Below are positions 20,322-37,174 of a stretch of DNA of 64,000 bases, piece by piece. The notes beneath the pieces were generated by a model. It worked only from the letters and a program-made list of their open reading frames with translations. It ran no database searches and had not been told where the DNA came from. The DNA is from Bacillales bacterium (GTDB lineage: Bacteria > Bacillota > Bacilli > Bacillales > DASSOY01), in the NCBI GenBank assembly GCA_035776675.1, contig DASTWO010000067.1:207-64206 (forward strand), written 5' to 3'. Positions within the stretch are counted from its first letter, which is position 1. Every line of letters starts with the position of its first letter. Made by a program: the position numbers and the translations under genes.

Positions 20322-20424
20322 CCAGGGTTGTATCTGTTTAGGAGAGCGTCCCGGCCCTCGTAAACAGTTCAATATAAATCACACCTCTACATAGAGGTAA
20401 AACAATTTGAGGAGGAGTTCAATA

Positions 20425-21243: not shown

Positions 21244-21265
21244 TGAATTAGTTTCCTAAGTTATA

Positions 21266-21305
21266 CAGAAAAGGTGGGATTGGGATTCCTACCTTTTCTG
21301 TATAT
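21266..21305 (+). terminator. terminator hairpin after tasA
   Basis: CAGAAAAGGT (21266-21275) pairs with ACCTTTTCTG (21291-21300): a 10-bp perfect stem. The downstream tract is T-poor. Confidence 0.6.
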
Positions 21306-21419
21306 AATATCTGGGATGATAAAACGGTAGGTTCAGTTTTTTTCAAATGTAAACAAAAGAGCGTCCTCAAACCTGTGTCCATTATTTTTGAAGCCATCTC
21401 TTAAGTGAGGTCATGGAAA

Positions 21420-22109
21420 ATGAAACCACAATTATTTAAATGGGTTTTATTATACAGCTTAATAACTCTTACGTTCGTAGTGTTCATGCCAATTGGCAAT
21501 ACTGGAGCCAGTGGAGCCCCGAAAGAGATTGATCTAGCGACAGATCCGGGCGAATACCTGTTCAAGATCGCCAATATGAAGCCTGGAGACTGGGCAGACC
21601 GGACGTTGACGATTCAAAACAAAGGAAATCAGAATTTCGCATATACGGTCGAGACTCAGCGGAAGTCTGGGTCGGAAATGTTTTATAACCAGCTGATGCT
21701 TAAGGTTTCTGATTCTAAAGGTGTTTTGTATGAAGGGAAGTTGGGTGGATTCAGTGGTTTTGAAAATGCGAGGCCCCTTGCCAGTTTCAGTGAGGAAGAT
21801 CTTCAGTTCAAAATTACTTTTCCCTGGGAATCCGGTAATGAGTTTCAGGGGTTGGCCACGGAGGTGGCTCTGAAATTTTACGTTGAAGGTGACATGCCTC
21901 CTGCAGGAAATGATCCGTCAGGCGAACCAAACGACCCAACCAACGAAGGATCTCAGCCGACAACGGGTGGGGATGATTCATCGGTGTTGGATTCCATCTT
22001 GCCACAAACGGGTGAAACGAATCCGATGTACTATTACATGGCCGGCTTTGTGCTTGTTATGGCCGGGGGAGCATTATTTGCTGTTAAAAGGCGGCCGGAC
22101 CGCAAATGA
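21420..22109 (+). CDS. LPXTG cell-wall-anchored protein with a TasA/camelysin-like domain
   Basis: Sec signal peptide. ANMKPGDWADRTLTIQNKGNQNF parallels LSNMKPGDNVQRIFELNNVGSL in TasA. C-terminal block QFKITF...GNEFQGLATEVALKFYVE parallels the TasA C-terminus. Sorting signal LPQTGE plus hydrophobic helix plus KRRPDRK. Confidence 0.8.
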   Translation: MKPQLFKWVLLYSLITLTFVVFMPIGNTGASGAPKEIDLATDPGEYLFKIANMKPGDWADRTLTIQNKGNQNFAYTVETQRKSGSEMFYNQLMLKVSDSKGVLYEGKLGGFSGFENARPLASFSEEDLQFKITFPWESGNEFQGLATEVALKFYVEGDMPPAGNDPSGEPNDPTNEGSQPTTGGDDSSVLDSILPQTGETNPMYYYMAGFVLVMAGGALFAVKRRPDRK

Positions 22110-22816
22110 TAAAGTGGGCCGCCTTTCTTATGATTTTCGCTGGAATCGGGACCCTGTTGTATCCGTTTATTCATCGTGAAGTGAGTTCGTATCAGGAAAA
22201 TCAACTGCTGCAAAGATGGGAAAGGCTTCAGGATGAAGAAACGGAAACGTCCAAGGTGCAGGAGGTTCCGGATTGGCAATCCGCTCAAGAAAATTATGCT
22301 CGCCTGACAGGTATTTTTGAATCAGGACAGACCTCTGATAGCAATAAGCATAAAAAGACCTCCAAATCCGTTCAGCCAGGTGATTTACTAGGTGTGATTG
22401 AGATCGATAAAATTGATTGTCGACTTCCTATTCTGGAAGGCGCTACACTTGATCACATGAGAATTGCAGCCGGGCATATTACGGGAACTGCTCTTCCCGG
22501 GGCTATCGGCAACAGCGCGATTGCGGCGCACCGAAGTTATACATACGGAAGAATGTTCAATCGCCTGAATGAAGTAGAGGTTGGTGACAAAGTGGTGATT
22601 GAAACAAGAAGGAAAAGCTATGTTTATACCGTTTACAAAAAGTTGTTTGTAGAACCGGACGATGTCTCGGTGCTAAAAGGAAATCGAAACGAAAGAATTC
22701 TGACGCTTATTACGTGTCATCCAATGAGAAATCCCACGGGGCGCCTCATCATTAAAGCAACGGTCACTTCGGGGAAAGAAGGAACAGTGAACATTGGACA
22801 CAACAAAAAAGGGTGA
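22106..22816 (+). CDS. sortase (transpeptidase)
   Basis: N-terminal TM anchor. Catalytic-site signatures AAHRS and LTLITCHP. ATGA overlap with the LPXTG gene. Confidence 0.85.
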   Translation: MIKWAAFLMIFAGIGTLLYPFIHREVSSYQENQLLQRWERLQDEETETSKVQEVPDWQSAQENYARLTGIFESGQTSDSNKHKKTSKSVQPGDLLGVIEIDKIDCRLPILEGATLDHMRIAAGHITGTALPGAIGNSAIAAHRSYTYGRMFNRLNEVEVGDKVVIETRRKSYVYTVYKKLFVEPDDVSVLKGNRNERILTLITCHPMRNPTGRLIIKATVTSGKEGTVNIGHNKKG

Positions 22817-26415: not shown

Positions 26416-27939
26416 TTATATGATACCACTCCGAATGGCTCTTGCAGCTGCTTCTGTACGATTTCTCGCATTCATTTTGTGCATCACTGTCGAAACGTAG
26501 TCTCTTACAGTGTACTCGCTTAGTTGCAATTCCCCGGCAGCTTCCATTGTAGAGGCGCCATCAGCCATTAATTTCAGCACTTCCACTTCTCGAGGGGATA
26601 GATGGAACGGGCTTTCTCTCTTTTCTGGTTGCCCACCACCGAATTTAGCAAGAATTTCGCCGGCGCTTTGCCCGAATTTCATTAAGGCAGTAAATGTTTC
26701 CCTTGAAAGTTTAAATTTCTTCCCCGGGCCCTGGTCCAGAATGGCAGCACCGATCAATCGGCCTTCTGAAGGCACGTAAATGGGAGCGACAACAACAGTT
26801 TCCAGTTGGAATTCACGGACGTACCGGGTCGGGAATCCTTCTGTTGCCTCAGAAATGTATATAGGTTGTAAATTCTTCAGGTTTTCCCGGATCGGTTGTA
26901 AATTTCTCAAGTTTTTCTTAATGAGCGGGATATTGTCAATCGGCTCTTTAATGCTTCGAATCGCCTCGTTGTTGAAATGGTAACCAGAGAGCCCGAAACC
27001 TCTGCCCTCATCCGTCGAGTAAGAGAACAATGCACAGCGTTCAAACGGTAAATAGTTAACGAAACCGAACGTGATGTTTTGGATCACTTCGTTCAGATTT
27101 TGTGATCGCATGATCCATTCATTGAACAGAATGACCGCGTCTTTCCATTGCTGTTTCTGTTTGGAGTACCGTAAGGTACTTTCTCCGGCGGACAAGATTT
27201 GCAATGTGAAGGCTATGAATGACAACGTATGTGCCGATTCGCCTTCATTTGTACAGATAAGTAACGTTTCATTCTTCCAGGGAAGGGTAGAAACTTTTCG
27301 TTCGGTATCCGATTGGGCCGGTAGGTAATTGAGCAATGTTTCGGATAGAAGAAACATAGATTCAGCATGGAGGACACCGTCATGAAAAGAAGGTCGGCGC
27401 CTGGATCCATCTGCAATCTCATTGATTTCGTACCCGTTTTTCGTTCGTTTTGCCTTTGCAATCCATTCAATCGGCAATTGTTGTGAAGAGGCAAGCTGGT
27501 CGAGAAATAAATCTAGATCCAGGTGGTCATGGAACGGATAAGTGAGAATTTGTTCACTGATTTGCGAAAAGAGGAATTGAACGGCTTGGTGATTGGAATA
27601 GTTGTCATCGGCATCGGATTTAATGGCTTTATGGACGGCGTTTTCTAATAAAGTAATGGTGAAAATGACATGATTTGGATGGAAGGGTTTCTCGAACCTT
27701 TGAATCCCCGCCTGGATCTCGTTGAGAAAGGTCTGTGAATCCTTGCTGCTTTCAGAAAACAGATATTCAGAGAAAAAATCGATCGCTATATCCAGTTCAG
27801 CTGCTGTCTTTTCTTTATGTTCACGAAGATGAGCCGCTATTAAACGCCACTCTGCATGAACGGCTTCCCGGTGACGGAAAACAATATTGAGTCCGTTTTG
27901 CAAAATCACCTTCATATGCTGATCCAACGTTAAAACCAT
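26416..27939 (-). CDS. LuxR/GerE-family transcriptional regulator with a large N-terminal sensor region (paralog 1)
   Basis: C-terminal HTH LSPREVEVLKLMADGASTMEAAGELQLSEYTVRDYVSTVMHKMNARNRTEAAARAI. The preceding ~180 aa look GAF-like and the first ~250 aa are unassigned. Full-length paralog of 31466..32995. Confidence 0.85.
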   Translation of the reverse strand: MVLTLDQHMKVILQNGLNIVFRHREAVHAEWRLIAAHLREHKEKTAAELDIAIDFFSEYLFSESSKDSQTFLNEIQAGIQRFEKPFHPNHVIFTITLLENAVHKAIKSDADDNYSNHQAVQFLFSQISEQILTYPFHDHLDLDLFLDQLASSQQLPIEWIAKAKRTKNGYEINEIADGSRRRPSFHDGVLHAESMFLLSETLLNYLPAQSDTERKVSTLPWKNETLLICTNEGESAHTLSFIAFTLQILSAGESTLRYSKQKQQWKDAVILFNEWIMRSQNLNEVIQNITFGFVNYLPFERCALFSYSTDEGRGFGLSGYHFNNEAIRSIKEPIDNIPLIKKNLRNLQPIRENLKNLQPIYISEATEGFPTRYVREFQLETVVVAPIYVPSEGRLIGAAILDQGPGKKFKLSRETFTALMKFGQSAGEILAKFGGGQPEKRESPFHLSPREVEVLKLMADGASTMEAAGELQLSEYTVRDYVSTVMHKMNARNRTEAAARAIRSGII

Positions 27940-29132: not shown

Positions 29133-29477
29133 ATGAATAAGACTTACAACATGGATGAAGTATTCGCGAATATTGAAAAGCGGCTGCAGGCCAATCCTGA
29201 TCCAATTGAGGGAATGGAGGCGGTTTATCAATTCGATTTGTCCGGGGATGAAATCGAGACTTATCAGTTGCATCTTTCCAATGGAAAGGCATGGGTCGGG
29301 CAAGAGGAATCTTCTTCCGCGGATTGTCTCATTAAGATGAAGCAGAAGGATTTCATGGAGATGTTATTAGGTCGATTGAATGGTACCACAGCTTTCATGA
29401 CAGGGAAGTTAAAGGTGAAGGGCAGCATGGGGCTGGCGATGAAATTGCAAAATGTTCTTGGGCATTATGAGGCATAG
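29133..29477 (+). CDS. SCP2 (sterol/lipid carrier)-domain protein
   Basis: 114 aa. VYQFDLSGDE...DCLIKMKQKDFMEMLLGRLNGTTAFMTGKLKVKGSMGLAMKLQNV is the classic SCP2 C-terminal pattern. Confidence 0.8.
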   Translation: MNKTYNMDEVFANIEKRLQANPDPIEGMEAVYQFDLSGDEIETYQLHLSNGKAWVGQEESSSADCLIKMKQKDFMEMLLGRLNGTTAFMTGKLKVKGSMGLAMKLQNVLGHYEA

Positions 29478-29573
29478 ATGACTGTTGATCGGGTCAGAGA
29501 ATGGAGAGGTTTCATCATGAATTCGGCATAGAATGGTATAAAAAAACCACATGTTTCTGGGGGAGGATCTTTC

Positions 29574-31421
29574 ATGAAGCCGAAAAATTTGATTGAAATG
29601 CTGAGCAGAACGGTGCACCGTTATCCGGACAAAGCGGCGTTGATGTGGAAAAGCGGGGGAAGCTACCAGAGTCTGTCCTATCGGGATCTTTGGAGAAAGA
29701 TTCATAATACCGCATCGGGCTTGGCCAGACTGGGAGTCAAACACGGCGATAAAGTAGCGATTTTATCGGAAAATAACCCGATGTGGGCGATTTCGGATTT
29801 TGCTATTGGAAGCTTAGGAGCGGTAAGTGCGCCAATCTATCCGACTCTGCCTTCTGATCAGGTCACCTATATTCTCAAAAATGCGGACGTCCAGATAGCG
29901 ATCGTTGAGAATGAAGAACAGCTTGAGAAAATTAAGCAAGGAGACTCTGATGTCCAACATGTTGTCGTCATGCATCCAGGAACCGGATTCTCATCCTCTG
30001 AAGGAATATTGTCCTTCCTCGATTTGGATCAAGATGGAGAGCAACATCCTTTTGAAGGATGGGAGCACGAATGGAACAAGATCGACAAGGATCAGCTGGC
30101 GACAATTATTCATACCTCCGGGACAACCGGACCTCCAAAAGGTGTAATGCTCAGCCATGAAAATTTCCTTGTGAATATGGAAGCGGTTCAATTCTGGATT
30201 ATTGAATTGCTTCCTGAAGATGTATCTCTTTCTTATTTGCCATTGTCCCATGTATTCGAACGGATGGCAGGGCATTTCATGCCGTTGTCAGTAGGAGCCA
30301 CAATTGCTTATGCTGAAAGTATCGACAAAATTCAGGACAATGTGAAGGAAGTCAAACCGACCATTATGACGAGTGTCCCCCGCTTGTTTGAGAAGGTGTA
30401 CGCCAAGGTCATTGAACAAATCGAGAACGGCTCGCCGATTAAAAGGAAAATATTCAATTGGGCGCTTGAAGTAGGCAAACAGCGCTATGACTATTATCTG
30501 AACAGTAAGGTGAACGACTTGCTGCTTCATGAACCAATACCGGCGAAATTACGACGCCAATGGGCACGGGCTGATCGGATGGTTTACCGGAAGATTAAGG
30601 AGCAGCTTGGAGGTCGAATGAGAGGGATGGTGTCCGGCGGAGGAGCCTTGAACCCAGAGATCGCACGATTTTTCTGGGCGTTGGATTTGCCGATATTGGA
30701 AGGATATGGGCTGACGGAAACCTCCCCTGTGATTTCGACTAATCCTATGATCAGGGCCAAGGCCGGAACGGTCGGGAAACCATTGCCGAATTTGGAAGTG
30801 AGAATTGCGCCAGACGGTGAAGTTCTTGTCAAAGGGCCGAGTGTAATGAAAGGCTATTACAAGAATAAAGAAGCCACGGAAAAGGATATTGTCGATGGCT
30901 GGTTCTATACGGGTGACATCGGAGAGATTGATCAGGAAGGGTATTTGAAAATTATTGACCGAAAAAAGCGCCTCCTGATTCTGTCTACCGGGAAAAATGT
31001 TGCGCCTCAACCAATCGAAAATGCTATGAATGAAAGTCGGTTTATCGATCAATCCGCCATTATCGGGGATAAAAGGAAGTATGTGATTGCTTTCGTGTCC
31101 CCGGATTTTGAGAATCTACTTCCCTGGGCAAGCAAACAAGGCATTACCTCTGAATCAAGAGAAGGGGTTTGCCGCCATCCGGATGTGTTGAACCTTTTTC
31201 AAGAAGAAGTTGAACGGCTGACTCGGACTTTCGCCGGTTATGAACAACCGAAGAAGGTCATTGTTGTCGGGGAAGAATGGACGGTTGAAGGCGGAGAGCT
31301 AACGCCAACGTTAAAGGTGAAAATGAAGAAAATTCAAGAGAAATACAGTCGGGTGATCAATGAAGTGTATGCGCAAGCCGAAACGGCAGCCGGACTGGAT
31401 CATGCTGAAAGAAAAGCGTGA
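29574..31421 (+). CDS. long-chain acyl-CoA synthetase (AMP-forming, FAA1/FadD-like, 615 aa)
   Basis: AMP-binding motifs HTSGTTGPPKGV, EGYGLTETSP, YTGDIGEIDQEGYLKIIDRKK and GELTPTLKVKMKKI. Confidence 0.88.
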   Translation: MKPKNLIEMLSRTVHRYPDKAALMWKSGGSYQSLSYRDLWRKIHNTASGLARLGVKHGDKVAILSENNPMWAISDFAIGSLGAVSAPIYPTLPSDQVTYILKNADVQIAIVENEEQLEKIKQGDSDVQHVVVMHPGTGFSSSEGILSFLDLDQDGEQHPFEGWEHEWNKIDKDQLATIIHTSGTTGPPKGVMLSHENFLVNMEAVQFWIIELLPEDVSLSYLPLSHVFERMAGHFMPLSVGATIAYAESIDKIQDNVKEVKPTIMTSVPRLFEKVYAKVIEQIENGSPIKRKIFNWALEVGKQRYDYYLNSKVNDLLLHEPIPAKLRRQWARADRMVYRKIKEQLGGRMRGMVSGGGALNPEIARFFWALDLPILEGYGLTETSPVISTNPMIRAKAGTVGKPLPNLEVRIAPDGEVLVKGPSVMKGYYKNKEATEKDIVDGWFYTGDIGEIDQEGYLKIIDRKKRLLILSTGKNVAPQPIENAMNESRFIDQSAIIGDKRKYVIAFVSPDFENLLPWASKQGITSESREGVCRHPDVLNLFQEEVERLTRTFAGYEQPKKVIVVGEEWTVEGGELTPTLKVKMKKIQEKYSRVINEVYAQAETAAGLDHAERKA

Positions 31422-31465: not shown

Positions 31466-32995
31466 TTAAATCATGCCGTTTCGAATCGCCTTAACTACGG
31501 CTTCCGTCCGGTTTCTCGCTTTCATTTTCTGCATGATGGCTGAGATGTAGTCGCGAACGGTGTACTCACTTAAGTTCAGGGAATCGGCAGCTTCACTTGT
31601 TGAGGCTCCATCCGCCATTAACTTCAATACATCAATCTCACGTGGAGACAGGTGAGGTGGCGTGGCAACATTTGAAGATGCAGGGCGGTCTCCGCCGTAT
31701 TTCGCAAGAATCTCTCCGGCGCTTTGTCCGAATTTCATTAAGGCAGTAAAAGTGGCACGTGAAATTTCGAACCGTTTTCCGGGTCCCTGGTCCAAAATGG
31801 CGGCTCCGATCAACTTGCTGCCCGAAGGGACGAATATGGGCGCTATGACGACAGACTCGAGCTGAAATTGGCGAACATATTGATCAGGTAATCCCTGTGC
31901 AGCTTCAGAGATGTAGATGGGTTGAAGGTTTTTCAAGTTCTCCCCAAGGGGTTGCAACCTTTGTAAGTTCTTCTGGATAAGCGGAACATTTCGAATGTCT
32001 TCTTTAATACTTTGAATCGCATCATTGTTGAGTTGATGGCCGAATAATCCAAAACCCCTTTGGTCGACAGTGGAGTAGGCAAACAATGCACAACGTTCAA
32101 AAGGCAAATAGTTAACAAATCCGGACGTTACGTTTTCAATGGCTTCATTCAATGATTGGGACCGCATAATCCATTCATTGAACAAGATAACCGCATCTTT
32201 CCACTGTTGCTCCTGTCTGGTGTAGGCAAGGGCATTTTCACTGTTCCGGAAAATCTGCAAGGCAAAGGTGACAAACGGGAGAATATGGGAGGTACCCGCC
32301 TGATTTGTGCATAACAATAACGTGCCGTCATCAGATGGGACAGGATAAATCTTACGCTCTCGTCCCGGTTCCACAGGCATTTTGTTGAGCAAAGATTCAG
32401 ACAGTGCGAACAATGAATCTGCCTGCAGTTCCTTCTTCTCGGGAAACCAATTACGTTTCGTCTTACTGAAAATTTTCTTTGCCTGAACACCGTGTCCATA
32501 ATCTTCTAATTTTGCGATCCATTCGACAGGCAGTTGCTGTGAGGAAACGAGTTGATCTAGAAAGGTGTCCATGTTAAGTTGCTCTTTATAAGGATGGGCA
32601 AGCAAATGCTCGCTCATTTGAGAAAACAAGTATTGAACAGCTTGATGCTGTTGATATTCATCGCCGATCCCAGATTGAATGGCCTCATGGGCTGCGTTTT
32701 CCAGCAACGTAATAATGAAAATAAGGTGATTTGGCCGAAGGGGACTAGAAAACTGCTGCCAATGATCATCCATGTTCCTGAACAAGTCTGCCGTATCCTT
32801 CCGATTCTCTGAAAACAGGCATTCGGAGAAGAAGCTGATTGTTGCTTCCAACTCATCTACTGAACTATTCTCTGCTTTGTTAAGGTGAACAGATATCTTT
32901 TCCCATTCTGACACTATAAGTTGTTGATGTTCTTGAACAACATTCAGGCCATCCCGCAAAACAACCTGCATCTGTCGGCTTAACGTAAGGGACAT
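31466..32995 (-). CDS. LuxR/GerE-family transcriptional regulator with a large N-terminal sensor region (paralog 2)
   Basis: 509 aa, collinear with 26416..27939. Long identical blocks: QQWKDAVILFNEWIMRSQ, GFVNYLPFERCALF, LIGAAILDQGPGK, TFTALMKFGQSAGEILAK, VLKLMADGAST. C-terminal GerE HTH. Confidence 0.85.
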   Translation of the reverse strand: MSLTLSRQMQVVLRDGLNVVQEHQQLIVSEWEKISVHLNKAENSSVDELEATISFFSECLFSENRKDTADLFRNMDDHWQQFSSPLRPNHLIFIITLLENAAHEAIQSGIGDEYQQHQAVQYLFSQMSEHLLAHPYKEQLNMDTFLDQLVSSQQLPVEWIAKLEDYGHGVQAKKIFSKTKRNWFPEKKELQADSLFALSESLLNKMPVEPGRERKIYPVPSDDGTLLLCTNQAGTSHILPFVTFALQIFRNSENALAYTRQEQQWKDAVILFNEWIMRSQSLNEAIENVTSGFVNYLPFERCALFAYSTVDQRGFGLFGHQLNNDAIQSIKEDIRNVPLIQKNLQRLQPLGENLKNLQPIYISEAAQGLPDQYVRQFQLESVVIAPIFVPSGSKLIGAAILDQGPGKRFEISRATFTALMKFGQSAGEILAKYGGDRPASSNVATPPHLSPREIDVLKLMADGASTSEAADSLNLSEYTVRDYISAIMQKMKARNRTEAVVKAIRNGMI

Positions 32996-33131
32996 CAGAT
33001 TCCCTCCTTTCTACATCATTATTTAGCCTGGAACAGGCTTATTCCAAATTCGTTTCTCTCCGAGTCCTTATCTATTGTCGATTATATCATTTCCTTCTGT
33101 TATATGACAGATATGGAATGGGAAATCCTTA

Positions 33132-33146
33132 CCCTACACTTTTCGG
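33132..33146 (+). promoter_or_regulatory. upstream copy of the CCCTACACTTTTCGG motif (no plus-strand -10 behind it)
   Basis: Perfect 15-nt match to 33457-33471. Lies about 25-40 nt upstream of a possible minus-strand luxR2 promoter (CTGTCA-18-TATAAT, read on the minus strand at about 33075-33110). Confidence 0.4.
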
Positions 33147-33155
33147 AAGTGGAAA

Positions 33156-33425
33156 CTCGCTCCGGCAATGGCGGCAGGATGTCTTACGATCCTGAAGCTA
33201 GCACCTGATCGCATTGAATCAAAGGTTGGCCCCGGAACAGACCCGCAAAATGACCTTAGACCTGTTATCAGCAAAGCTCAACTTTAAAAGATTCAAACGG
33301 GTTGGGATGAGAGGGCATCGGTTTTGACAGGAGGTCAAATTCCAGAAGATCTCAACGAAGGCTATTATATGGAATCGAAATCGGTGATTTGCGATTTGAA
33401 TGGCCGGCCAGTGACTCTTTTTTAG
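33156..33425 (+). pseudogene. collapsed relic of an aldehyde dehydrogenase gene
   Basis: One frame reads LAPAMAAGCLTILKLAPD...ESKVGPGTDPQNDLRPVISKAQL*KIQTGWDERASVLTGGQIPEDLNEGYYMESKSVICDLNGRPVTLF*. These segments match, in order, ALDH signature regions as I remember them: xAPALAAGNxxxxKP; kvGdPxdxxtxxGPlisxxq; eGAxxxxGG; and the C-terminal EYxExKxV. Only about 90 codons remain of an expected ~490, with an internal stop at 33285. Confidence 0.5.
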
Positions 33426-33456
33426 CCCCTTATTTTGTAGGGAGAACCTGGGGCGG

Positions 33457-33500
33457 CCCTACACTTTTCGGTATTGTGGAGAAAGGGTTATTTTTATAAA
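33457..33500 (+). promoter_or_regulatory. candidate LuxR-paralog operator plus activator-dependent promoter of the three-gene envelope operon
   Basis: CCCTACACTTTTCGG (33457-33471), then T, then ATTG, then TATAAA at 33495-33500: 23 nt from motif end to the -10, identical geometry to 28086-28128. Confidence 0.5.
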
Positions 33501-33600
33501 ATTTTTGATGTAAGCGATTTCCCGTTTAGTGATGATGCATGAAAGGGTATTACTTTAACAGGAGATTTTCGAAAATTCAAATCATGGAGAGGTGAAGTTT

Positions 33601-34197
33601 GTGGATCCTTTGTATATGGAAGAAGCGGTGGAAGAAGAATCCGAATTCGTCACGGGTCATACAGTGAAGAAGAAGCTTATCGCGGCATTGTTGTCCGGGT
33701 TCCTATTGCTCGGTGGTTTGGCGGCCGTTTTCGGGATTTCCGGTGTAGCCTATGCTATGCCAATCGCCGGAATCGGGAATTTTCACGTTGAATTTGATAA
33801 GTTGACGGGGCAAGGATTTAAACTCTTTACGAAAATTGGAGATACAGGTAAGTCGGAGCAAGTTCCTATGTTTCGCGTTAAGATCGACGAAGCGACTATC
33901 CATAATTTGCACATTTATAAGGATATAGAAGTCCCGGGTATGGGCAAAGTCAGATTTAATATCACGGCATCAAAACCGGTTCAAGTGAAAGGCTTAATTC
34001 AGGATGCCCAGAAACAGATTGGAAATGCCACTTTCACGAACCAGGCTATTGATGAGAACTTCGGTGCCGATCATCCTTTTTCGCAGACAGCGGATACGAT
34101 TACTTTAACGGATGCTTCACTTGTTACTGATTACCTGTTTCAAAGTGTAGTCACTTTGAATGGCCTGAAACTCAGTTTTGAAAATATTGAAGGATAA
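33601..34197 (+). CDS. membrane-anchored or secreted beta-rich protein, DUF6230-like
   Basis: GTG at 33601 lies 8 nt after GGAGAGG; alternatives are 33592 and ATG 33616. Acidic N-terminus, a hydrophobic segment ending VAYA, then GNFHVEFDKLTGQGF...ATIHNLHI...NITASKPVQVKGL...NATFTNQAID. This matches my recollection of actinobacterial DUF6230 proteins. Confidence 0.7.
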   Translation: MDPLYMEEAVEEESEFVTGHTVKKKLIAALLSGFLLLGGLAAVFGISGVAYAMPIAGIGNFHVEFDKLTGQGFKLFTKIGDTGKSEQVPMFRVKIDEATIHNLHIYKDIEVPGMGKVRFNITASKPVQVKGLIQDAQKQIGNATFTNQAIDENFGADHPFSQTADTITLTDASLVTDYLFQSVVTLNGLKLSFENIEG

Positions 34198-34231
34198 TGT
34201 ATAAGGTGACCTGAGAAAGAGGGGTGAAAGA

Positions 34232-34978
34232 ATGAACACGGAGAAAAAGGCGTTGAAAGCCGAAAAGAGGCAGGAAAAGGTCAGGCGGAAGCAAGATAAG
34301 CTTAGAAAAGCGAGTCGGTTTAAACAATGGAGAAAAAGACGGCCATTTTGGGGAGCGAGCCTGACCTTGTTGGCGGGCTTGCTGATTTTGTGGATCCCTC
34401 TGAATTTGTATATGCTCGCATTCGCTCCAGGGAATTTTGCCATTGTCGGTCTTTTATTCGGCGGATTAATAACGATAATCGGCGTGATGGCCTATATCTA
34501 TCCACAATTTTCAACAGTGCTCGGTGTAATGACCATATTTTTGTCAGTAATTTCGATTATGGGAGCTTTGGGCGGATTTGTGGTCGGAACGATCCTTGGT
34601 ATTGTCGGTGGTTCTCTTTGTATTGCCTGGCGTCGTGAAGTAATTCCGGCCCGAGAAAAGGCGGATGGGCGCAGAAACGTGAAAGAGTTCCGCAAACCGA
34701 AAACGAAAAAGTCTGGGAAACCCGGTGAGGAAGATGCATTATCTCCAACAGCTTCTTCCCGTGTAATGTTTGTGAATGAGAATAATGAGATCGCTTCTAC
34801 TCTGGAATCTGACAAACCGAAAATAAAGGATGGAAAGCCAACTGTTGATAAGACTGGCAGCCCGCAAAAGGTTCAAACACAGAAAGCGGTAAGTCCGGCG
34901 GATGTGCTGGAGGCTGCAGGCTCCACCCGTATTCATCACAACGAAAAAAAAGATGTCAATGAAAAACGGAATGCTTAG
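34232..34978 (+). CDS. polytopic membrane protein, DUF6114-like, with charged N- and C-terminal tails
   Basis: ATG follows AGGGGTG. Basic N-terminus ending RFKQWRKRRPFWG, four hydrophobic helices, then GGFVVGTILGIVGGSLCIAW. This pattern is how I remember DUF6114, the usual neighbour of DUF6230. The C-terminal tail of about 110 aa is K/E/P-rich. Confidence 0.7.
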   Translation: MNTEKKALKAEKRQEKVRRKQDKLRKASRFKQWRKRRPFWGASLTLLAGLLILWIPLNLYMLAFAPGNFAIVGLLFGGLITIIGVMAYIYPQFSTVLGVMTIFLSVISIMGALGGFVVGTILGIVGGSLCIAWRREVIPAREKADGRRNVKEFRKPKTKKSGKPGEEDALSPTASSRVMFVNENNEIASTLESDKPKIKDGKPTVDKTGSPQKVQTQKAVSPADVLEAAGSTRIHHNEKKDVNEKRNA

Positions 34979-34988
34979 GGGAATGTCT

Positions 34989-36638
34989 ATGAGACGAATC
35001 ATTCGGACCATCGGCCAACCAAAGATCTATTTAGCCGTTATCCTGTTGATCGCTTTTTCTCTTCCTCTTGGAGGAAGAGCCGCCTCCGCGGCGGGGGCAT
35101 CCCCGGGTTTTGTCATTCATTCGGATCGCATTGAAGGGGAAATGATGGTACCCGGTGTGACCATTGGCCCAAATGGCCAACCGACGCTGGTTTTTAAATA
35201 TGCTTCTGCCACCATTCACGGCCTTAGGTTAACAAATGTGGTGGAATCCCCGGATGGCCCAATAACGATCATCATTACTGCCTCATTGGTTAAAGCGAAG
35301 AACATGACTGTAAGAGCCACGGGTTTTTCAGCTGGAGGCGCCTGTCTTAAGCTTGGCAAGACTTATCCGCAGGTCGCTTTGAAAAATGTGACTCTTCTTG
35401 CTCATCATATGGAGGCTAGCCAAATTGACCTTCAAGGTTTACATGTTTCTGTTGTGGAAGGCGCACACGGACAACAACGTCCGGCAACCAGCAGAGTGAT
35501 TCAAGATTTACTTGGCCTCCCGGCAAACGCTTTGGAGGGTGCAATCGATGACTTGCTGAGTGGGCATATTCCGTTAAGTTGCAGTGCTTCTGAGAGCGAT
35601 GATGAAAATCACGGTGGTGGAACCGATGTCTCCAAGAAGGTAGAAGACGTAACTGATGAAGTTGAAAAGATTATTGGGGGCAATGGAAAGCCAGTAGAGG
35701 AAATGACCGAAGGCGCACAAGGTATAGTAGACAAGACGACAGACGATCTTGGCAATGCTGTAAATAATACAACGGATGATTTAGGGAATACGATCGGCGG
35801 AATAGGGGATCAATTAGGCAATACCATAGGCGGTCCCGTTGGTGAGGCAGTCGAAAACACTGGAAATGCCGTAGGTGACATTGTTGGCGGCACAGGGGAT
35901 ACGGTAAACAATGTGGTCGATGAAGGGAAAAAGACTGTTGACGATGTGGTTAACGATGTTCAAAATACGGTGAATGATGTGGTTTCCGGGAATATTGATG
36001 ATATACCTGAAGATGTTGGAAATACGGCTGATCATGCTACAGAACATACGATGCAGGTATCTCAAGAGCTGTTAGACGGTGTTGAAAAAATCGGTAATCA
36101 AGCGACGGATTTGTTGTCCGACACTAATAACACGCTTGACCAGCTCACTTTAAGTGAGTTAGATGGAATCCATCAGGATATACAACATGCTGTTCAGGAA
36201 TTGGGAGATTTACAAACCGGGCTGTTTGGACTTTTAAATCCTCGACAGGCCGAGGAACCGTTAAATACCTTGAAGAACCGATTAGGAGATTTGGAGAAGA
36301 AGCAAGGCCGGTTAAGTGATCTGCAGGAGAAAGTCCGTGAAAATCAGAAACAGTTACAGCAATACGAGAATCGACTAGGGGATTTAAAGGATAAAGTGAA
36401 CTCTACATTTGATCAGTTGCAGAACCGAATTCGAAAGACACGGGACGATATTGATGCGGCTTCGGAACAATTGGCTTTATTAAGCGAGGAACTCTCGAAC
36501 GGTCAAAAGGAAATTCGAACTATCGCCTCAACCGCAAAGGAGGAAATGCAACAAAACGAAGGATTGCTTAGTCATTTAACAGGCTCGTTAAATGATTTGT
36601 TAAATGGTGTGAACGGATTGTTTGATGATTTGCTCTAG
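34989..36638 (+). CDS. secreted multidomain protein: DUF6230-like domain + 11-residue repeat array + C-terminal coiled coil
   Basis: ATG at 34989 (or 34983) lies just after the upstream stop and AGGGG; the ORF track start at 34902 overlaps the previous gene. Signal peptide MSMRRIIRTIGQPKIYLAVILLIAFSLPLGGRAASAAGA. The domain with ATIHGLRL / IIITASLVKAKNM is paralogous to the protein at 33601. Repeats lie at 35640-36002. The last ~200 aa are heptad-rich (LGDLEKKQGRLSDLQEKVRENQKQLQQYENRLGDLKDKV). Confidence 0.8.
   Translation: MRRIIRTIGQPKIYLAVILLIAFSLPLGGRAASAAGASPGFVIHSDRIEGEMMVPGVTIGPNGQPTLVFKYASATIHGLRLTNVVESPDGPITIIITASLVKAKNMTVRATGFSAGGACLKLGKTYPQVALKNVTLLAHHMEASQIDLQGLHVSVVEGAHGQQRPATSRVIQDLLGLPANALEGAIDDLLSGHIPLSCSASESDDENHGGGTDVSKKVEDVTDEVEKIIGGNGKPVEEMTEGAQGIVDKTTDDLGNAVNNTTDDLGNTIGGIGDQLGNTIGGPVGEAVENTGNAVGDIVGGTGDTVNNVVDEGKKTVDDVVNDVQNTVNDVVSGNIDDIPEDVGNTADHATEHTMQVSQELLDGVEKIGNQATDLLSDTNNTLDQLTLSELDGIHQDIQHAVQELGDLQTGLFGLLNPRQAEEPLNTLKNRLGDLEKKQGRLSDLQEKVRENQKQLQQYENRLGDLKDKVNSTFDQLQNRIRKTRDDIDAASEQLALLSEELSNGQKEIRTIASTAKEEMQQNEGLLSHLTGSLNDLLNGVNGLFDDLL
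35640..36002 (+). repeat. array of 11 tandem 11-codon (33-nt) repeats inside the 34989..36638 CDS
   Basis: Eight clear units from 35739: TDDLGNAVNNT / TDDLGNTIGGI / GDQLGNTIGGP / VGEAVENTGNA / VGDIVGGTGDT / VNNVVDEGKKT / VDDVVNDVQNT / VNDVVSGNIDD. Three weaker units precede them from 35640: VEDVTDEVEKI / IGGNGKPVEEM / TEGAQGIVDKT. Confidence 0.75.
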
Positions 36639-36642
36639 CAGC

Positions 36643-36680
36643 AAACCGGCCCTGATCAATTGATCAGGGCCGGTTTTTGA
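36643..36680. terminator. strong bidirectional rho-independent terminator
   Basis: AAACCGGCCCTGATCA (36643-36658) pairs with TGATCAGGGCCGGTTT (36661-36676), followed by TTGA. Lies between convergent genes. Confidence 0.9.
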
Positions 36681-36688
36681 GCTTTCGG

Positions 36689-37174
36689 TTAATTTTTCAA
36701 TAAATGTTTCTTGATGTGATCCAGGCTTTTCACGAGCACATCGTCTTTCATCATAAAGCTGTACTTGTTCCTCCCGTTGATTTCTCTGGGGACGTATTGC
36801 AGAAATATCGGCCCATTGGTTTCATGATAATGAGCCTGTGTTTGGATTTGATCGATCTTGGCAAAATAGACATTTTTCACGATCGTGCCGCTCCGGCCTT
36901 CTACCTTGTATTGGCCCACATAATAAAGATTGGATACGGTAGCACCGGTCTCTTCCATTACCTCTCGCTTTGCTGCAGTCTCCGCGCTTTCCCCTTCCTC
37001 GACCTTGCCTCCGGGAAATTCCCATCCACGGCGAGGGTGTTCAGTTAATAGCCAGTGATTGCAAAACCGGCAAATCACCCAAACATGCTTTGGAGACTTT
37101 GAAAAGGGCTGGTGGGCGAACGAAAATTGTACGGTATTGTGATAGAAGTCTTCAAATCTAATGACATTTTCCAT
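36689..37174 (-). CDS. ytkD: NUDIX hydrolase YtkD (nucleoside triphosphatase)
   Basis: FSKSPKHVWVICRF..WLLTEHPRRGWEFPGGKVEEGES...REVMEETGA...YVGQYKV closely parallels B. subtilis YtkD as I remember it. Nudix box present. Confidence 0.85.
   Translation of the reverse strand: MENVIRFEDFYHNTVQFSFAHQPFSKSPKHVWVICRFCNHWLLTEHPRRGWEFPGGKVEEGESAETAAKREVMEETGATVSNLYYVGQYKVEGRSGTIVKNVYFAKIDQIQTQAHYHETNGPIFLQYVPREINGRNKYSFMMKDDVLVKSLDHIKKHLLKN

What the first reader, a model, noticed from the sequence alone, without database searches (positions are those of the whole stretch)
33457..36680. Orphan three-gene envelope operon (DUF6230-like, DUF6114-like, secreted repeat/coiled-coil protein) facing a dedicated LuxR-type regulator
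Three co-directional genes (33601-34197, 34232-34978, 34989-36638) are separated by gaps of only 34 and 10 nt. Each has its own RBS. They end in a strong bidirectional terminator (36643-36680) and are divergent from luxR paralog 2.

Gene 1 has an acidic N-terminus, one hydrophobic segment ending VAYA, and a beta-rich ectodomain of about 145 aa (GNFHVEFDKLTGQGF...NATFTNQAID). Gene 2 has a very basic N-terminus (RFKQWRKRRPFWG), four hydrophobic helices ending GGFVVGTILGIVGGSLCIAW, and a charged tail of about 110 aa. From memory these two match the actinobacterial DUF6230 / DUF6114 gene pair. That pair has no known function, and I would not expect it in a Bacillus-like genome.

Gene 3 has no counterpart I recognise. 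It combines a signal peptide with a twin-arginine (MSMRRIIR), a second copy of the gene-1 ectodomain, an 11-residue repeat array and a helical/coiled-coil C-terminus of about 200 aa.

I can see no catalytic, ATPase or transporter motif in any of the three. The architecture points to a membrane-anchored extracytoplasmic assembly, such as a surface or fibre structure, an envelope-stress device or a lipid-interacting device. The functional reading is inference only.
Basis: partly seen in the sequence, partly recalled or inferred. Interest (0 to 1): 0.85.

Follow-up and report, generated by a model that had tools for sequence, protein, structure and literature searches.

The report
Alkane-linked envelope operon (P16/DUF6230–DUF6114)
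This three-gene operon and its LuxR-type regulator are real and form a widespread but almost unstudied Bacillales envelope module, whose first protein matches an alkane-induced membrane-fraction protein of Geobacillus, so it probably helps Gram-positive cells handle very hydrophobic substrates.

Summary
Three co-directional genes (33601-34197, 34232-34978, 34989-36638) with 34- and 10-nt gaps end in a strong hairpin and face a LuxR/GAF regulator. Gene 1 is DUF6230, gene 2 is DUF6114, and gene 3 starts with a second, divergent DUF6230 domain, then an acidic 11-residue repeat and a coiled coil.

It is not an orphan. The same module occurs in at least 78 Bacillales species-level genomes, and the DUF6230→DUF6114 pair also occurs in Actinobacteria.

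Gene 1 is the orthologue of P16, a protein of Geobacillus thermoleovorans induced by long-chain alkanes. P16's sequenced mature N-terminus shows the signal peptide is cut at AYA|xP, so gene 1 is secreted rather than N-terminally anchored. The twin arginine in gene 3 is not conserved.

A palindrome, TGTAGGG-N14-CCCTACA, unique in the window, marks the promoter region and recurs across genera.

In relatives the module sits beside, or inside, alkane and lipid oxidation genes (R2lox, ADH, ALDH, SCP2, FadD, thiolase). In Thermaerobacter, DUF6114 is fused to an acyl-CoA synthetase.

Best reading, by inference: an extracytoplasmic device for capturing or transferring long-chain hydrophobic substrates. 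The mechanism is untested.

The parts
31466..32995 (-). luxR paralogue 2. A 509-aa regulator with an unassigned N-terminal region of about 280 aa, a GAF domain (residues 282-425) and a GerE/LuxR HTH (residues 449-503).
   Evidence: Pfam GerE 64 bits and GAF 24.2 bits. It is 52 % identical over its full length to the module-linked regulator of Tuberibacillus. A homologous regulator is divergently adjacent in 55 of 78 loci.
33436..33463 (.). Palindromic operator-like element TGTAGGG-N14-CCCTACA. It lies about 140-165 nt upstream of gene 1.
   Evidence: It occurs once in the 64-kb window, with 0.03 expected. The half-site 7-mer is found in 34-37 of 56 luxR-DUF6230 intergenic regions, with 1-2 expected. 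Of 27 palindromes in 1.17 Mb of fetched loci, 26 lie within 700 nt upstream of the first DUF6230 gene. That the LuxR protein binds here is inferred.
33132..33138 (-). An extra TGTAGGG half-site near the luxR-2 end of the intergenic region.
   Evidence: Three of the window's four TGTAGGG copies lie in this one intergenic region.
33509..33516 (+). Conserved TGTAAGCG box, about 92 nt upstream of the gene 1 start. It may be a promoter-proximal degenerate half-site.
   Evidence: TGTAAGC(G) is present in 25-29 of 56 intergenic regions, with about 1 expected. It sits 16-100 nt upstream of the called (longest-ORF) start of the first DUF6230 gene.
33601..34197 (+). Gene 1, a DUF6230 protein of 198 aa and the orthologue of Geobacillus P16. 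Residues 1-52 (33601-33756) are a conserved signal peptide ending AYA. The mature protein starts MPIAGIGNFHVEFDKL and folds as an all-beta domain with long strands.
   Evidence: Pfam 61.3 bits. 45 % identity, E 6e-43, to the Geobacillus orthologue. The mature N-terminus of P16 is VPISGVGEFXVTFDKL, which maps to residue 46 of the L065 ORF. In the AF2 model the ectodomain has pLDDT 81-96 except for one block at 75.
34232..34978 (+). Gene 2, a DUF6114 membrane protein of 248 aa. It has a basic cytoplasmic N-terminus with W-x3-RPFWG. Four closely packed TM helices span residues 39-133, and the last has an invariant glycine zipper (G115/G119/G123/G127). The charged tail of about 115 aa is specific to this clade.
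   Evidence: Pfam 103.6 bits. Invariant columns are listed. Charge distribution (18 K/R in the first 38 residues) is. The tail is found only in the closest relatives.
34989..36638 (+). Gene 3, a secreted protein of 549 aa. It has four parts:
- a signal peptide, residues 1 to about 36;
- a divergent DUF6230 domain, residues about 38-160, with invariant C119 and C198;
- an acidic hendecad repeat, residues 206-345 (nt 35604-36023), net charge -26;
- a heptad coiled coil, residues 346-549.
   Evidence: Domain homology. Periodicities. In the AF2 model the N-domain has pLDDT 72-84, and the rest is long helices of low confidence. Homologous third genes occur in 67 of 78 loci, with tails of variable length.
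36643..36680 (+). Intrinsic terminator hairpin that closes the operon.
   Evidence: -31.1 kcal/mol, z = -6.3, none of 200 shuffles as stable. It is followed by UUUUU on the + strand.
29133..31421 (+). An SCP2 sterol-carrier-like gene (29133-29477) and a long-chain acyl-CoA synthetase gene (29574-31421), convergent with luxR-2. They may be functionally associated with the module.
   Evidence: Pfam SCP2 83 bits and AMP-binding 290 bits. Orthologues lie next to the module in 18 and 22 of 78 loci. In Camelliibacillus and Pullulanibacillus they are on the opposite side of the module.

Best explanation
What it is. The locus is an ordinary member of a conserved Bacillales module with four parts. The first is a LuxR/GAF regulator. 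The second is one or two secreted DUF6230 beta-domain proteins of the P16 type, with a cleaved signal peptide. The third is a small four-helix DUF6114 membrane protein with a glycine zipper. The fourth is a second secreted DUF6230-domain protein, which here carries an acidic amphipathic 11-residue repeat and a coiled coil.

Proposed working, all inferred. The regulator binds the TGTAGGG-N14-CCCTACA palindrome and switches the operon on when long-chain hydrophobic compounds, or a product of them, are present. Genes 1 and 3 are exported by Sec and cut at an AxA site. Their beta domains stay at the outer face of the membrane through DUF6114, and there they bind very hydrophobic molecules such as long-chain alkanes, lipids or esters. 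The apolipoprotein-like helical tail of gene 3 reaches through the wall to contact the hydrophobic phase. DUF6114 passes the substrate into or across the membrane. On the cytoplasmic side the substrate meets oxidising and activating enzymes: R2lox, alcohol and aldehyde dehydrogenases, acyl-CoA synthetase and SCP2.

This would be a single-membrane counterpart of FadL/AlkL plus FadD. The anatomy, family membership, conservation, operator motif and gene neighbourhood are shown here. Alkane induction and signal-peptide cleavage are shown only for the Geobacillus orthologue. Binding and transport are not shown anywhere.
For: Family and orthology:
- DUF6230 and DUF6114 score above the Pfam cutoffs.
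- Gene 1 is 45 % identical to the Geobacillus module protein. That protein matches the P16 N-terminal peptide, and the L065 copy also matches its 196-aa length and 45-residue leader.

Experimental data on P16 and P21 (PMC2676291):
- They are induced at protein and mRNA level by long-chain alkanes, more strongly with longer chains.
- They are not induced by palmitate, tributyrin, trimyristin or DCPK.
- They are found in the insoluble fraction.

Gene neighbourhood:
- P21 (GK2770) lies beside the R2lox alkane monooxygenase GK2771, within an alkane and beta-oxidation cluster (PMC10867098).
- In the closest relative, L003, one strand carries thiolase, R2lox, ABC1-like kinase, Zn-ADH, ALDH, then genes 1, 2 and 3. 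The R2lox matches PDB 4HR0 at E 8e-143.
- Salinibacillus and Salirhabdus have thiolase-SCP2-R2lox-FadD-<luxR|module.
- 34 of 78 loci have at least one such gene within 8 kb.
- The window itself has SCP2 and FadD next to luxR-2.

Fusions:
- DUF6114 is fused to an acyl-CoA synthetase in two Thermaerobacter assemblies, each preceded by the ABC1-like kinase, and one also has R2lox nearby.
- DUF6114 is fused to DUF6230 in P0309, which keeps the signal-peptide-like helix and an AMA|LP site between the two domains.

Other support:
- A Streptomyces DUF6230 protein is named 'cholesterol esterase' in UniRef.
- The gene 3 repeat has a sharp 3.67-residue amphipathic period. The actinobacterial third genes have the same kind of repeat.
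- The conserved operator is documented.
Against: - There is no direct evidence of ligand binding or transport for any family member. 'Transporter' in the 2024 paper is an assertion.
- The window has no R2lox, ADH or ABC1-like kinase within its 64 kb.
- Adjacency of FadD and SCP2 could partly be inherited gene order within one clade.
- The DUF6230 model has no significant structural neighbour (best Foldseek E 0.06, TM 0.14 or less), so a lipid-binding cavity is not shown.
- A DUF6230-like domain also heads large PKD/CARDB surface proteins. Some modules add sortase and Ig-like surface proteins. Both fit an anchoring or assembly role as well as they fit a carrier role.
- Kato et al. could not make gene disruptions.
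Confidence: 0.5

Rival explanations
1. Envelope protection rather than uptake. The module would be a stress or tolerance device that shields or repairs the membrane and wall when hydrophobic compounds accumulate. The beta-domain proteins and the acidic helical protein would coat the outer membrane face.
For: P16 and P21 appear late, after about 10 days, when cells on alkanes have become longer and thicker. Kato et al. themselves list 'uptake, tolerance, or degradation'. No transporter-type energising component is encoded. The regulator belongs to the LuxR/GerE class, which also includes envelope-stress regulators such as LiaR and VraR; only the HTH matches these.
Against: Induction rises with chain length from C10 to C34, whereas solvent toxicity falls with chain length (established knowledge). 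The module is embedded co-directionally in catabolic clusters (R2lox-ADH-ALDH). DUF6114 is fused to an acyl-CoA synthetase. Both point to substrate flow rather than shielding.
Confidence: 0.2
2. Surface display, adhesion or a surface structure. The DUF6230 domain would be an N-terminal module that docks secreted proteins onto DUF6114, or assembles with its paralogues. Gene 3 would then be a surface stalk, for example for attaching to hydrophobic surfaces or oil droplets, and gene 1 a minimal subunit or cap.
For: A DUF6230-like domain sits at the N-terminus of large surface proteins: a 3341-aa protein with GEVED and CARDB, a 750-aa protein with six PKD repeats, and a Halorientalis PKD protein. 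Gene 3 tails vary from 0 to about 620 aa while the N-domain is kept. 'Type II' modules add DUF6801/Ig-like surface proteins and a sortase. One gene 1 homologue carries an LPTTA sorting signal. The most conserved stretch of genes 1 and 3 is the first strand just after the cleavage site. The signal-peptide core is unusually conserved.
Against: The AF2 monomer model is a complete, confident domain, with no sign of a missing strand. There is no similarity to TasA/camelysin or to pilins. Geobacillus modules lack the third gene altogether. This reading does not by itself explain the link to catabolic genes, although adhesion to oil would be compatible with it.
Confidence: 0.2
3. Secreted lipolytic enzyme. 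The DUF6230 proteins would be small cholesterol or wax esterases, as the Streptomyces annotation suggests.
For: A Streptomyces DUF6230 protein is named 'cholesterol esterase' in UniRef. The N-termini of P16 and P21 resemble the S. lavendulae enzyme.
Against: The 53-sequence gene 1 family has no invariant Ser or His and no GxSxG motif. No hydrolase domain is found. Kato et al. found full-length similarity to the esterase negligible. Tributyrin and trimyristin do not induce P16 or P21.
Confidence: 0.05

Closest known systems
P16 and P21, alkane-inducible membrane-fraction proteins of Geobacillus thermoleovorans B23 / G. kaustophilus GK3040 and GK2770 (Kato et al. 2009, PMC2676291; Nithimethachoke et al. 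2024, PMC10867098)
   Same: Gene 1 is 45 % identical to the Geobacillus P16 orthologue. Both have the same AYA|xP-x2-G-x-G-x-F-x-V-x-F-D-K-L junction. Both lie in the same luxR|DUF6230|DUF6114 module. The models are beta-rich with an N-terminal helix.
   Different: Geobacillus modules have no third gene, and P21 is encoded elsewhere, beside R2lox. The window adds gene 3, with its hendecad and coiled-coil tail, and a 115-aa tail on DUF6114. Alkane induction has not been tested for this organism, and no R2lox lies within the window.
Actinobacterial DUF6230-DUF6114 gene pair, including Streptomyces proteins annotated 'cholesterol esterase' after the S. lavendulae gene (Nishimura and Sugiyama 1994)
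   Same: The same two Pfam families occur in the same order on the same strand. They are followed by a secreted protein with a repeat of 3.65-3.67-residue periodicity.
   Different: No LuxR/GAF or FadD homologue was detected next to the actinobacterial pairs. In the third gene the repeat comes before the beta domain, and homology of that domain to DUF6230 is not significant. The actinobacterial DUF6230 has a conserved cysteine pair. Esterase activity is not supported for the Bacillales clade.
FadL / AlkL / OmpW outer-membrane channels working with FadD (vectorial uptake of hydrophobic substrates in Gram-negative bacteria)
   Same: The proposed logic is the same: a beta-rich extracytoplasmic protein passes a long-chain hydrophobic substrate towards an acyl-CoA synthetase. 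OmpW, FadL and PagP appear among the weak Foldseek hits.
   Different: No homology is shown (E 0.08 or worse, TM about 0.13). There is no outer membrane here. The proteins are secreted and cleaved, not integral barrels. This is an analogy only.
Mce / MlaD lipid transport systems
   Same: The outline of N-terminal hydrophobic segment, beta domain and long helical region resembles Mce proteins. There is a weak coiled-coil hit to the Mce family model (TIGR00996, 24.6 bits against a cutoff of 140.5).
   Different: There is no MlaD/MCE domain, permease or ATPase. The signal peptide is cleaved. It is not a member.
TasA/TapA/SipW biofilm fibre system
   Same: Both involve secreted beta-rich proteins of about 200 aa with a conserved N-terminal strand after cleavage, with paralogous major and accessory proteins encoded in one operon.
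   Different: There is no Peptidase_M73/camelysin match and no structural match. No dedicated signal peptidase lies in the module. The window's own sipW-tasA-like cluster is separate, at 19.7-22.8 kb.

Membership tests
Pfam DUF6230 (PF19741) | Score above the gathering cutoff (27.5 bits) over most of the 145-position model | tested here: met
   Gene 1 scores 61.3 bits over model positions 4-139. Gene 3 scores 26.8 bits as the full-length protein but 32.7 bits when the domain is scanned alone. hhalign gives 98.5 %, E 2.7e-15, over 126 columns.
Pfam DUF6114 (PF19609) | Score above the gathering cutoff (27.9 bits) over the full 106-position model | tested here: met
   Gene 2 scores 103.6 bits over model positions 1-106. 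The invariant RPFWG and GALGG...G-x3-G-x3-G motifs are present.
P16-type alkane-inducible protein (Geobacillus) | Sequence orthology and the same genomic module | tested here: met
   45 % identity, E 6e-43. The luxR|DUF6230|DUF6114 arrangement is seen in Geobacillus loci L062-L066.
P16-type alkane-inducible protein (Geobacillus) | Signal peptide cleaved at AYA|xP, giving a mature N-terminus xPxxGxGxFxVxFDKL | tested here: inconclusive
   The motif ...GVAYA|MPIAGIGNFHVEFDKL is present and invariant across the family. Cleavage was shown by N-terminal sequencing only for Geobacillus P16.
P16-type alkane-inducible protein (Geobacillus) | Induction by long-chain alkanes; recovery in the insoluble (membrane) fraction | not testable with these tools
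   This needs expression and fractionation experiments in this organism.
Cholesterol esterase (S. lavendulae type) | Conserved catalytic residues or an esterase motif | tested here: not met
   Among 53 gene 1 homologues there is no invariant Ser or His and no GxSxG. No hydrolase family hit was found.
Tat (twin-arginine) substrates | A conserved S/T-R-R-x-F-L-K motif directly before the hydrophobic core | tested here: not met
   RR lies at residues 2-3, nine residues before the core. The closest homologues replace it with RP or RH.
Mce/MlaD lipid transporters | MlaD/MCE domain together with a permease and an ATPase | tested here: not met
   No MlaD domain was found at E of 1 or better. The only hit is a coiled-coil match to TIGR00996, at 24.6 bits against a cutoff of 140.5.
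TasA/camelysin (Peptidase_M73) | Peptidase_M73 domain; a SipW-type peptidase in the operon | tested here: not met
   There is no Pfam hit and no Foldseek hit. The window's sipW lies 13 kb away with its own TasA-like gene.
LuxR/GerE-family regulator with GAF sensor | C-terminal GerE HTH and a GAF domain | tested here: met
   GerE scores 64 bits and GAF 24.2 bits (cutoff 22.4). PDB matches cover only the HTH. The N-terminal 280 aa are unassigned.
Anti-phage defence systems (Zorya ZorA and others) | Match to the membrane (MotA-like) part of ZorA, plus partner genes | tested here: not met
   Only the coiled-coil tail matches, at 20-30 bits (NCBIfam cutoff 190). Genes 1 and 2 have no PADLOC hit.

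The most novel reading that the evidence does not exclude
The module is the core of a previously unrecognised envelope pathway by which single-membrane bacteria, and perhaps haloarchaea, acquire long-chain alkanes and other very hydrophobic lipids. Secreted DUF6230 beta-domain carriers, one with an apolipoprotein-like hendecad arm, would hand substrate to an oligomeric glycine-zipper DUF6114 conduit. That conduit would be coupled on the inside to an acyl-CoA synthetase or to R2lox. It would be a functional counterpart of FadL/AlkL-FadD with an unrelated, new fold and no ATPase.
Probability: 0.3. Interest if true: 0.8.

Novelty: new member of a known kind. Interest (0 to 1): 0.55.

Why it matters
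How Gram-positive bacteria bring long-chain alkanes and similar water-insoluble substrates across the wall and membrane is largely unknown. The only leads in Geobacillus are P16 and P21, which have never been placed in a system.

This analysis shows that P16 belongs to a conserved, regulated module comprising a LuxR/GAF regulator, DUF6230, DUF6114 and a second DUF6230 protein with a helical arm. The module has a recognisable operator, recurrent linkage to R2lox, ADH, ALDH, SCP2 and FadD genes, and informative gene fusions.

That turns two Pfam families of unknown function into a testable hypothesis. It also supplies candidate genes for hydrocarbon bioremediation and for engineering uptake of hydrophobic feedstocks. 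The locus in this window is itself an ordinary member of the module.

Tried and rejected
- Foldseek of the gene 1 model against the PDB gave no hit below E 0.06, and TM was 0.14 or less. The gene 3 model (pLDDT 51.6) returned only coiled-coil noise, such as Rad50 and AhlC.
- Profile searches of DUF6230 and DUF6114 against PDB sequences found nothing meaningful.
- An Rfam scan of 32900-36800 found no match.
- The sigma-70 scan found no convincing + strand promoter upstream of gene 1, and the counts equal chance. This fits an activator-dependent promoter but proves nothing. The same scan missed the terminator, which I folded directly.
- Tandem Repeats Finder sees only a 12-nt, 1.9-copy repeat. 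The 11-residue repeat is visible only at protein level.
- Tat export is rejected.
- Membership of the Mce, TasA, esterase and anti-phage (ZorA) families is rejected.
- Recent horizontal transfer: GC is even at 0.43-0.49 across 26-40 kb, so composition gives no sign of it.
A 5-sequence alignment worked.
- DUF6230 homology of the C-terminal beta domain of the actinobacterial third gene is not significant, E 0.03-1.
- P21 itself could not be retrieved. A P21-like N-terminus was found in P0231, which the Pfam model does not recognise.
- Literature searches for DUF6230, DUF6114 and the GK locus tags returned only a promoter list and the two Geobacillus papers.

Full report
1. OBSERVATION

The three co-directional ORFs exist as described: 33601-34197 (GTG start; the longest ORF begins at 33592), 34232-34978 and 34989-36638. 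The gaps are 34 and 10 nt. Shine-Dalgarno-like sequences precede each start (GGAGAGGTG, AGAGGGGTG, AGGGG).

The start of gene 3 at 34989 is supported by three homologues that begin MRR/MRP/MRH and by a 549-aa database entry.

The operon ends in a perfect hairpin at 36643-36680, with -31.1 kcal/mol, z = -6.3, and none of 200 shuffles as stable. Five U follow it on the + strand but only three on the - strand, so 'bidirectional' is only partly right. The pattern scan found no internal terminator above the chance rate. No Rfam family matches the region.

Upstream, and divergent, lies a 509-aa regulator at 31466-32995 with a GerE/LuxR HTH (64 bits) and a GAF domain (24.2 bits against a cutoff of 22.4). 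A paralogue that is 58.5 % identical lies at 26416-27939.

2. FAMILY ASSIGNMENTS

Gene 1 is DUF6230 (61.3 bits, cutoff 27.5) and gene 2 is DUF6114 (103.6 bits, cutoff 27.9).

The N-terminal domain of gene 3 scores 26.8 bits in the full-length protein. Scanned alone it scores 32.7 bits. An alignment of 30 third-gene N-domains matches the gene 1 family profile with 98.5 % probability, E 2.7e-15, over 126 columns. Gene 3 therefore does carry a second, divergent DUF6230 domain.

The 11-residue repeat is real. Residues 206-345 show an identity autocorrelation of 0.32 at lag 11 and a very sharp hydrophobic period of 3.67 residues, with net charge -26. Residues 346-549 switch to a period of about 3.5, a heptad coiled coil.

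All other Pfam, NCBIfam and PADLOC hits to gene 3 are low-scoring coiled-coil matches far below their cutoffs. No catalytic, ATPase or transporter domain is present.

(a) It is not an orphan.
- Gene 1 has 53 homologues, and every one that carries an organism name is from Bacillales.
- Gene 2 has 146 homologues across Bacillaceae.
- A scan of species-representative genomes found 162 relatives. The best 80 are almost all Bacillales, including Virgibacillus, Lentibacillus, Ornithinibacillus, Neobacillus, Heyndrickxia coagulans, Anoxybacillus and Geobacillus. The rest are two Thermaerobacter and one Chloroflexia.

(b) The twin arginine is not a Tat signal. It lies nine residues before the hydrophobic core, and the nearest homologues replace it with RP or RH.

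(c) Gene 1 is probably not membrane-anchored by its N-terminus (see section 5).

(d) Base composition is even at 0.43-0.49, so it gives no sign of recent acquisition.

4. THE MODULE

I called ORFs in 78 Bacillales-type loci and searched them with the window's proteins and iterated profiles.
- 55 loci have a homologous LuxR/GAF regulator divergently adjacent.
- 17 loci have two DUF6230 genes.
- All the loci were recovered through their DUF6114 gene.
- 67 loci have a third gene with a signal peptide and a DUF6230-like domain.

The tail of the third gene ranges from none (Neobacillus, about 190 aa in total) to about 620 residues. The tails are helical (dominant period 3.4-4.0) and acidic, with net charge down to -196.

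The regulator is the best-conserved protein of the module, at 52 % identity to Tuberibacillus over its full length. The flanking genes differ between Tuberibacillus and Peribacillus.

DUF6114 has the following features.
- The N-terminus is basic, with 18 K/R in the first 38 residues.
- A W-x3-RPFWG motif is invariant.
- The loops between its four helices are very short.
- The last helix has an invariant G-x3-G-x3-G-x3-G zipper.
- The 115-residue tail of the window's protein occurs only in its closest relatives.

In the gene 1 family the signal-peptide core is unusually conserved (K23, K24, G33, L37, G45, G48, A50, A52). The most conserved stretch is the junction GxSGVAYA|xPxxGxGxFxVxFxKLxG. 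The third-gene family begins its mature domain with the parallel motif GGF[IV]IExxK[VL][ED]G.

5. LINK TO EXPERIMENTAL LITERATURE

Searching for my unverified recollection that Streptomyces DUF6230 proteins are called 'cholesterol esterase' led to Kato et al. 2009 (PMC2676291).

In Geobacillus thermoleovorans B23, two proteins from the insoluble fraction, P16 and P21, are induced by long-chain alkanes at protein and mRNA level. Induction is stronger with longer chains (C10 to C34). Palmitate, tributyrin, trimyristin and DCPK do not induce them.

The sequenced mature N-terminus of P16 is VPISGVGEFXVTFDKL. P16 is 196 aa with a 45-residue leader. The DUF6230 genes of the Geobacillus luxR|DUF6230|DUF6114 modules that I fetched carry ...AYA|VPISGVGEFTVQFDKL. 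In L065 the ORF is 196 aa and the peptide starts at residue 46.

Gene 1 is 45 % identical to that protein, E 6e-43. Gene 1 is therefore the P16 orthologue. By homology it is cleaved after A52, giving MPIAGIGNFHVEFDKL....

A 2024 paper (PMC10867098) makes three relevant points.
- It places the P21 orthologue GK2770 next to GK2771, an R2lox protein reported to be an alkane monooxygenase.
- That pair sits inside a cluster with alcohol and aldehyde dehydrogenases, an acyl-CoA ligase and beta-oxidation genes.
- It describes the AlphaFold models of P16 and P21 as large beta-barrels with an N-terminal helix.

The 'cholesterol esterase' name was confirmed for a Streptomyces DUF6230 protein, P0314, in UniRef. 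No other paper mentions these families, apart from a promoter list.

6. STRUCTURE

With 53 sequences, AlphaFold2 gives gene 1 a mean pLDDT of 75.6. Block means across the beta domain are 81-96, apart from one at 75. The model has a helix at 23-43, which is the signal peptide, followed by an all-beta domain with strands up to about 20 residues long.

Foldseek against the PDB finds nothing significant. The best hit is E 0.06 with TM 0.14 or less, and the weak list is dominated by long-stranded barrels and sandwiches such as OmpW, PagP, FadL, PsbO and galectins. Sequence profiles find no solved relative either.

The gene 3 model is poor overall (pLDDT 51.6). Its N-domain, residues 41-157, is again all-beta with pLDDT 72-84, followed by long helices. 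Its PDB matches are coiled-coil noise.

7. GENE NEIGHBOURHOOD

I clustered 772 neighbouring proteins from the 78 loci and annotated the recurrent clusters.

(i) In nine genera a block of enoyl-CoA hydratase, SDR, thiolase, SCP2 and long-chain acyl-CoA synthetase lies directly upstream of luxR. The genera are Virgibacillus, Ornithinibacillus, Paucisalibacillus, Salinibacillus, Salirhabdus, Terrihalobacillus, Robertmurraya, Bacillus yapensis and Piscibacillus.
- In Camelliibacillus (enoyl-CoA hydratase and SCP2) and Pullulanibacillus (FadD and SCP2) genes of this block lie on the other side of the module. That argues against purely inherited gene order.
- The window keeps SCP2 (29133-29477) and the synthetase (29574-31421) next to luxR-2.

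(ii) In the closest relative, L003, whose genes 1 and 2 are 80 % and 78 % identical to the window's, one strand carries nine genes in a row.
- The order is thiolase, R2lox, an ABC1-like kinase, a Zn alcohol dehydrogenase, a 142-aa unknown, an aldehyde dehydrogenase, then genes 1, 2 and 3.
- The R2lox matches G. kaustophilus GkR2loxI (PDB 4HR0) at E 8e-143.
- No luxR is nearby.

(iii) Salinibacillus and Salirhabdus have thiolase-SCP2-R2lox-FadD-<luxR|module. Pueribacillus and relatives have ABC1k-ADH-ALDH-2xDUF6230-DUF6114-gene 3.

(iv) In two Thermaerobacter assemblies DUF6114 is fused in frame to an acyl-CoA synthetase.
- The ABC1-like kinase gene lies immediately upstream of the fusion in both.
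- One of the two also has R2lox and an ADH nearby.

(v) In total, 34 of 78 loci carry at least one of these genes within 8 kb.

(vi) Other contexts also occur.
- A 'type II' variant adds DUF6801/Ig-like surface proteins and a sortase.
- The Neobacillus group sits beside pha genes.

The window itself has no R2lox, ADH or ABC1-like kinase within its 64 kb.

8. FAMILY BREADTH AND FUSIONS

An exhaustive profile search of 1.84 billion representative proteins found only 191 DUF6230 clusters at E of 1e-3 or better. Named members come from Bacillota, Actinomycetota and a haloarchaeon (Halorientalis), and a Chloroflexia genome also carries the pair.

P0309 is a DUF6114-DUF6230 fusion. Between the two domains it keeps a basic loop, the signal-peptide-like helix and an AMA|LP site. 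That fixes the topology as DUF6114 N-in and C-in with DUF6230 outside, and it suggests the two proteins work together physically.

DUF6230-like domains also head large surface proteins: a 3341-aa protein with GEVED and CARDB, a 750-aa protein with six PKD repeats, and a haloarchaeal PKD protein.

In 80 actinobacterial-type metagenome loci, DUF6114 follows DUF6230 on the same strand in 57 of the 62 contigs with room for it. A conserved third gene there encodes a secreted Ser/Thr/Asp-rich protein with TVKDT-type repeats of period 3.65-3.67, then a beta domain. Homology of that domain to DUF6230 is not significant.

9. REGULATION

The luxR-2/gene 1 intergenic region is 605 nt long. It contains TGTAGGG-N14-CCCTACA at 33436-33463. 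This is the only such palindrome in the window, with 0.03 expected. Three of the window's four TGTAGGG copies lie in this region.

Across 56 luxR-DUF6230 intergenic regions the 7-mers TTGTAGG and TGTAGGG occur in 37 and 34, with 1-2 expected. TGTAAGC(G) occurs in 25-29, with about 1 expected.

The palindrome takes two forms: TGTAGG-N16-18-CCTACA, or the tight CCTACA-NN-TGTAGG. Of 27 palindromes in 1.17 Mb of fetched loci, 26 lie within 700 nt upstream of the first DUF6230 gene. The element is retained in L003, where no luxR is adjacent.

This supports a conserved, dedicated cis-element. That the LuxR protein binds it is inferred. Module-linked regulators in other genomes are about equally close to luxR-1 and luxR-2 (31 against 28). 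The two are therefore a lineage-specific duplication, and cross-regulation is possible.

10. INTERPRETATION

Shown here:
- the anatomy, family membership and orthology to P16;
- conservation of the four-gene module;
- the operator motif;
- linkage to R2lox, ADH, ALDH, SCP2, FadD and beta-oxidation genes;
- the two fusions.

Shown elsewhere, for the orthologue only: alkane induction, signal-peptide cleavage and recovery in the insoluble fraction.

Inferred: the DUF6230 domains bind long-chain hydrophobic substrates at the outer face of the membrane. The hendecad arm of gene 3 contacts the hydrophobic phase. DUF6114 relays the substrate to cytoplasmic enzymes.

I give this reading about 0.5. The rivals are envelope protection (0.2), a surface-display or adhesion structure (0.2) and an esterase (0.05). 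The rise of induction with chain length argues against a simple solvent-stress response, because toxicity falls with chain length. The absence of any invariant Ser or His argues against an esterase. The PKD/CARDB fusions and the sortase-linked variants keep the anchoring or adhesion reading alive.

11. NOVELTY AND INTEREST

The locus is a typical new member of a module whose components are already catalogued, as two Pfam DUFs and as P16/P21. I could find no paper that describes the module as a system.

Interest is moderate (0.55). The finding itself is ordinary within its family. The family, however, bears on an open question: how Gram-positive bacteria take up long-chain alkanes and lipids. 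The evidence gathered here makes that question directly testable.

Noticed in passing
window 19758-22816 (+): A separate surface-protein cluster. It has a sipW-like signal peptidase (19758-20321), a TasA/camelysin-like protein (20407-21243), a second secreted protein with an LPQTG sorting signal (21405-22109) and a sortase (22106-22816).
   Followed up: partly
window 26416-27939 (-): luxR paralogue 1 is 58.5 % identical to luxR-2 over its full length. Unrelated genes flank it: an O-methyltransferase-like gene, a 3-methyladenine glycosylase-like gene and a divergent metallo-beta-lactamase-fold gene. No TGTAGGG palindrome lies nearby. Module-linked regulators in other genomes are equally close to both paralogues.
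   Followed up: partly
L069 3563-6301; L082 7791-10064: In two Thermaerobacter assemblies DUF6114 is fused in frame to a long-chain acyl-CoA synthetase. In each, an ABC1-like kinase gene lies directly upstream. L082 also has an R2lox (923-1963, - strand).
   Followed up: yes
L004, L005, L008, L009, L010, L013, L014, L020, L024, L031, L039, L043: A 'type II' module variant. It has two tandem DUF6230 genes, DUF6114 and a long third gene. Large DUF6801 + Bact_surface_Ig-like surface proteins accompany it, and in 8 of the 12 loci a sortase was also detected. Often no luxR is adjacent.
   Followed up: partly
L088, L103, L112 and other actinobacterial metagenome loci (e.g. L103 5094-6617): A conserved third gene follows the actinobacterial DUF6230-DUF6114 pair. 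It encodes a secreted Ser/Thr/Asp-rich protein with TVKDT-type repeats of 3.65-3.67-residue periodicity, then a C-terminal beta domain. A fourth gene is also conserved. Neither has a Pfam match.
   Followed up: partly
P0238 (Halorientalis salina), P0269, P0294: A DUF6230-like domain, not recognised by the Pfam model in these three proteins, sits at the N-terminus of large surface proteins with PKD, CARDB or GEVED repeats. One of them is from a haloarchaeon.
   Followed up: partly
L038, L042, L047, L057, L068, L072, L073, L076, L078, L080 (Neobacillus group): The module lies next to polyhydroxyalkanoate genes (a PhaP_Bmeg phasin and a PhaC-like hydrolase), an FtsH-like protease, a PadR regulator and an NlpC/P60-PcsB hydrolase. 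This may simply be gene order specific to that lineage.
   Followed up: no
L064 8484-8972 and the equivalent genes in L062, L063, L066: In four of the five Geobacillus loci (L062-L064, L066) the gene directly downstream of DUF6114 encodes a Staygreen-family protein (PF12638, 158 bits for L064) instead of a gene 3-type protein; L065 lacks it.
   Followed up: no
window 1514, 2738, 16816, 18957, 33509: The octamer TGTAAGCG occurs 5 times in the window, with 1.16 expected (2 of 100 shuffles reach 5). Only the copy at 33509 is in the module's promoter region. The others are unexplained.
   Followed up: no
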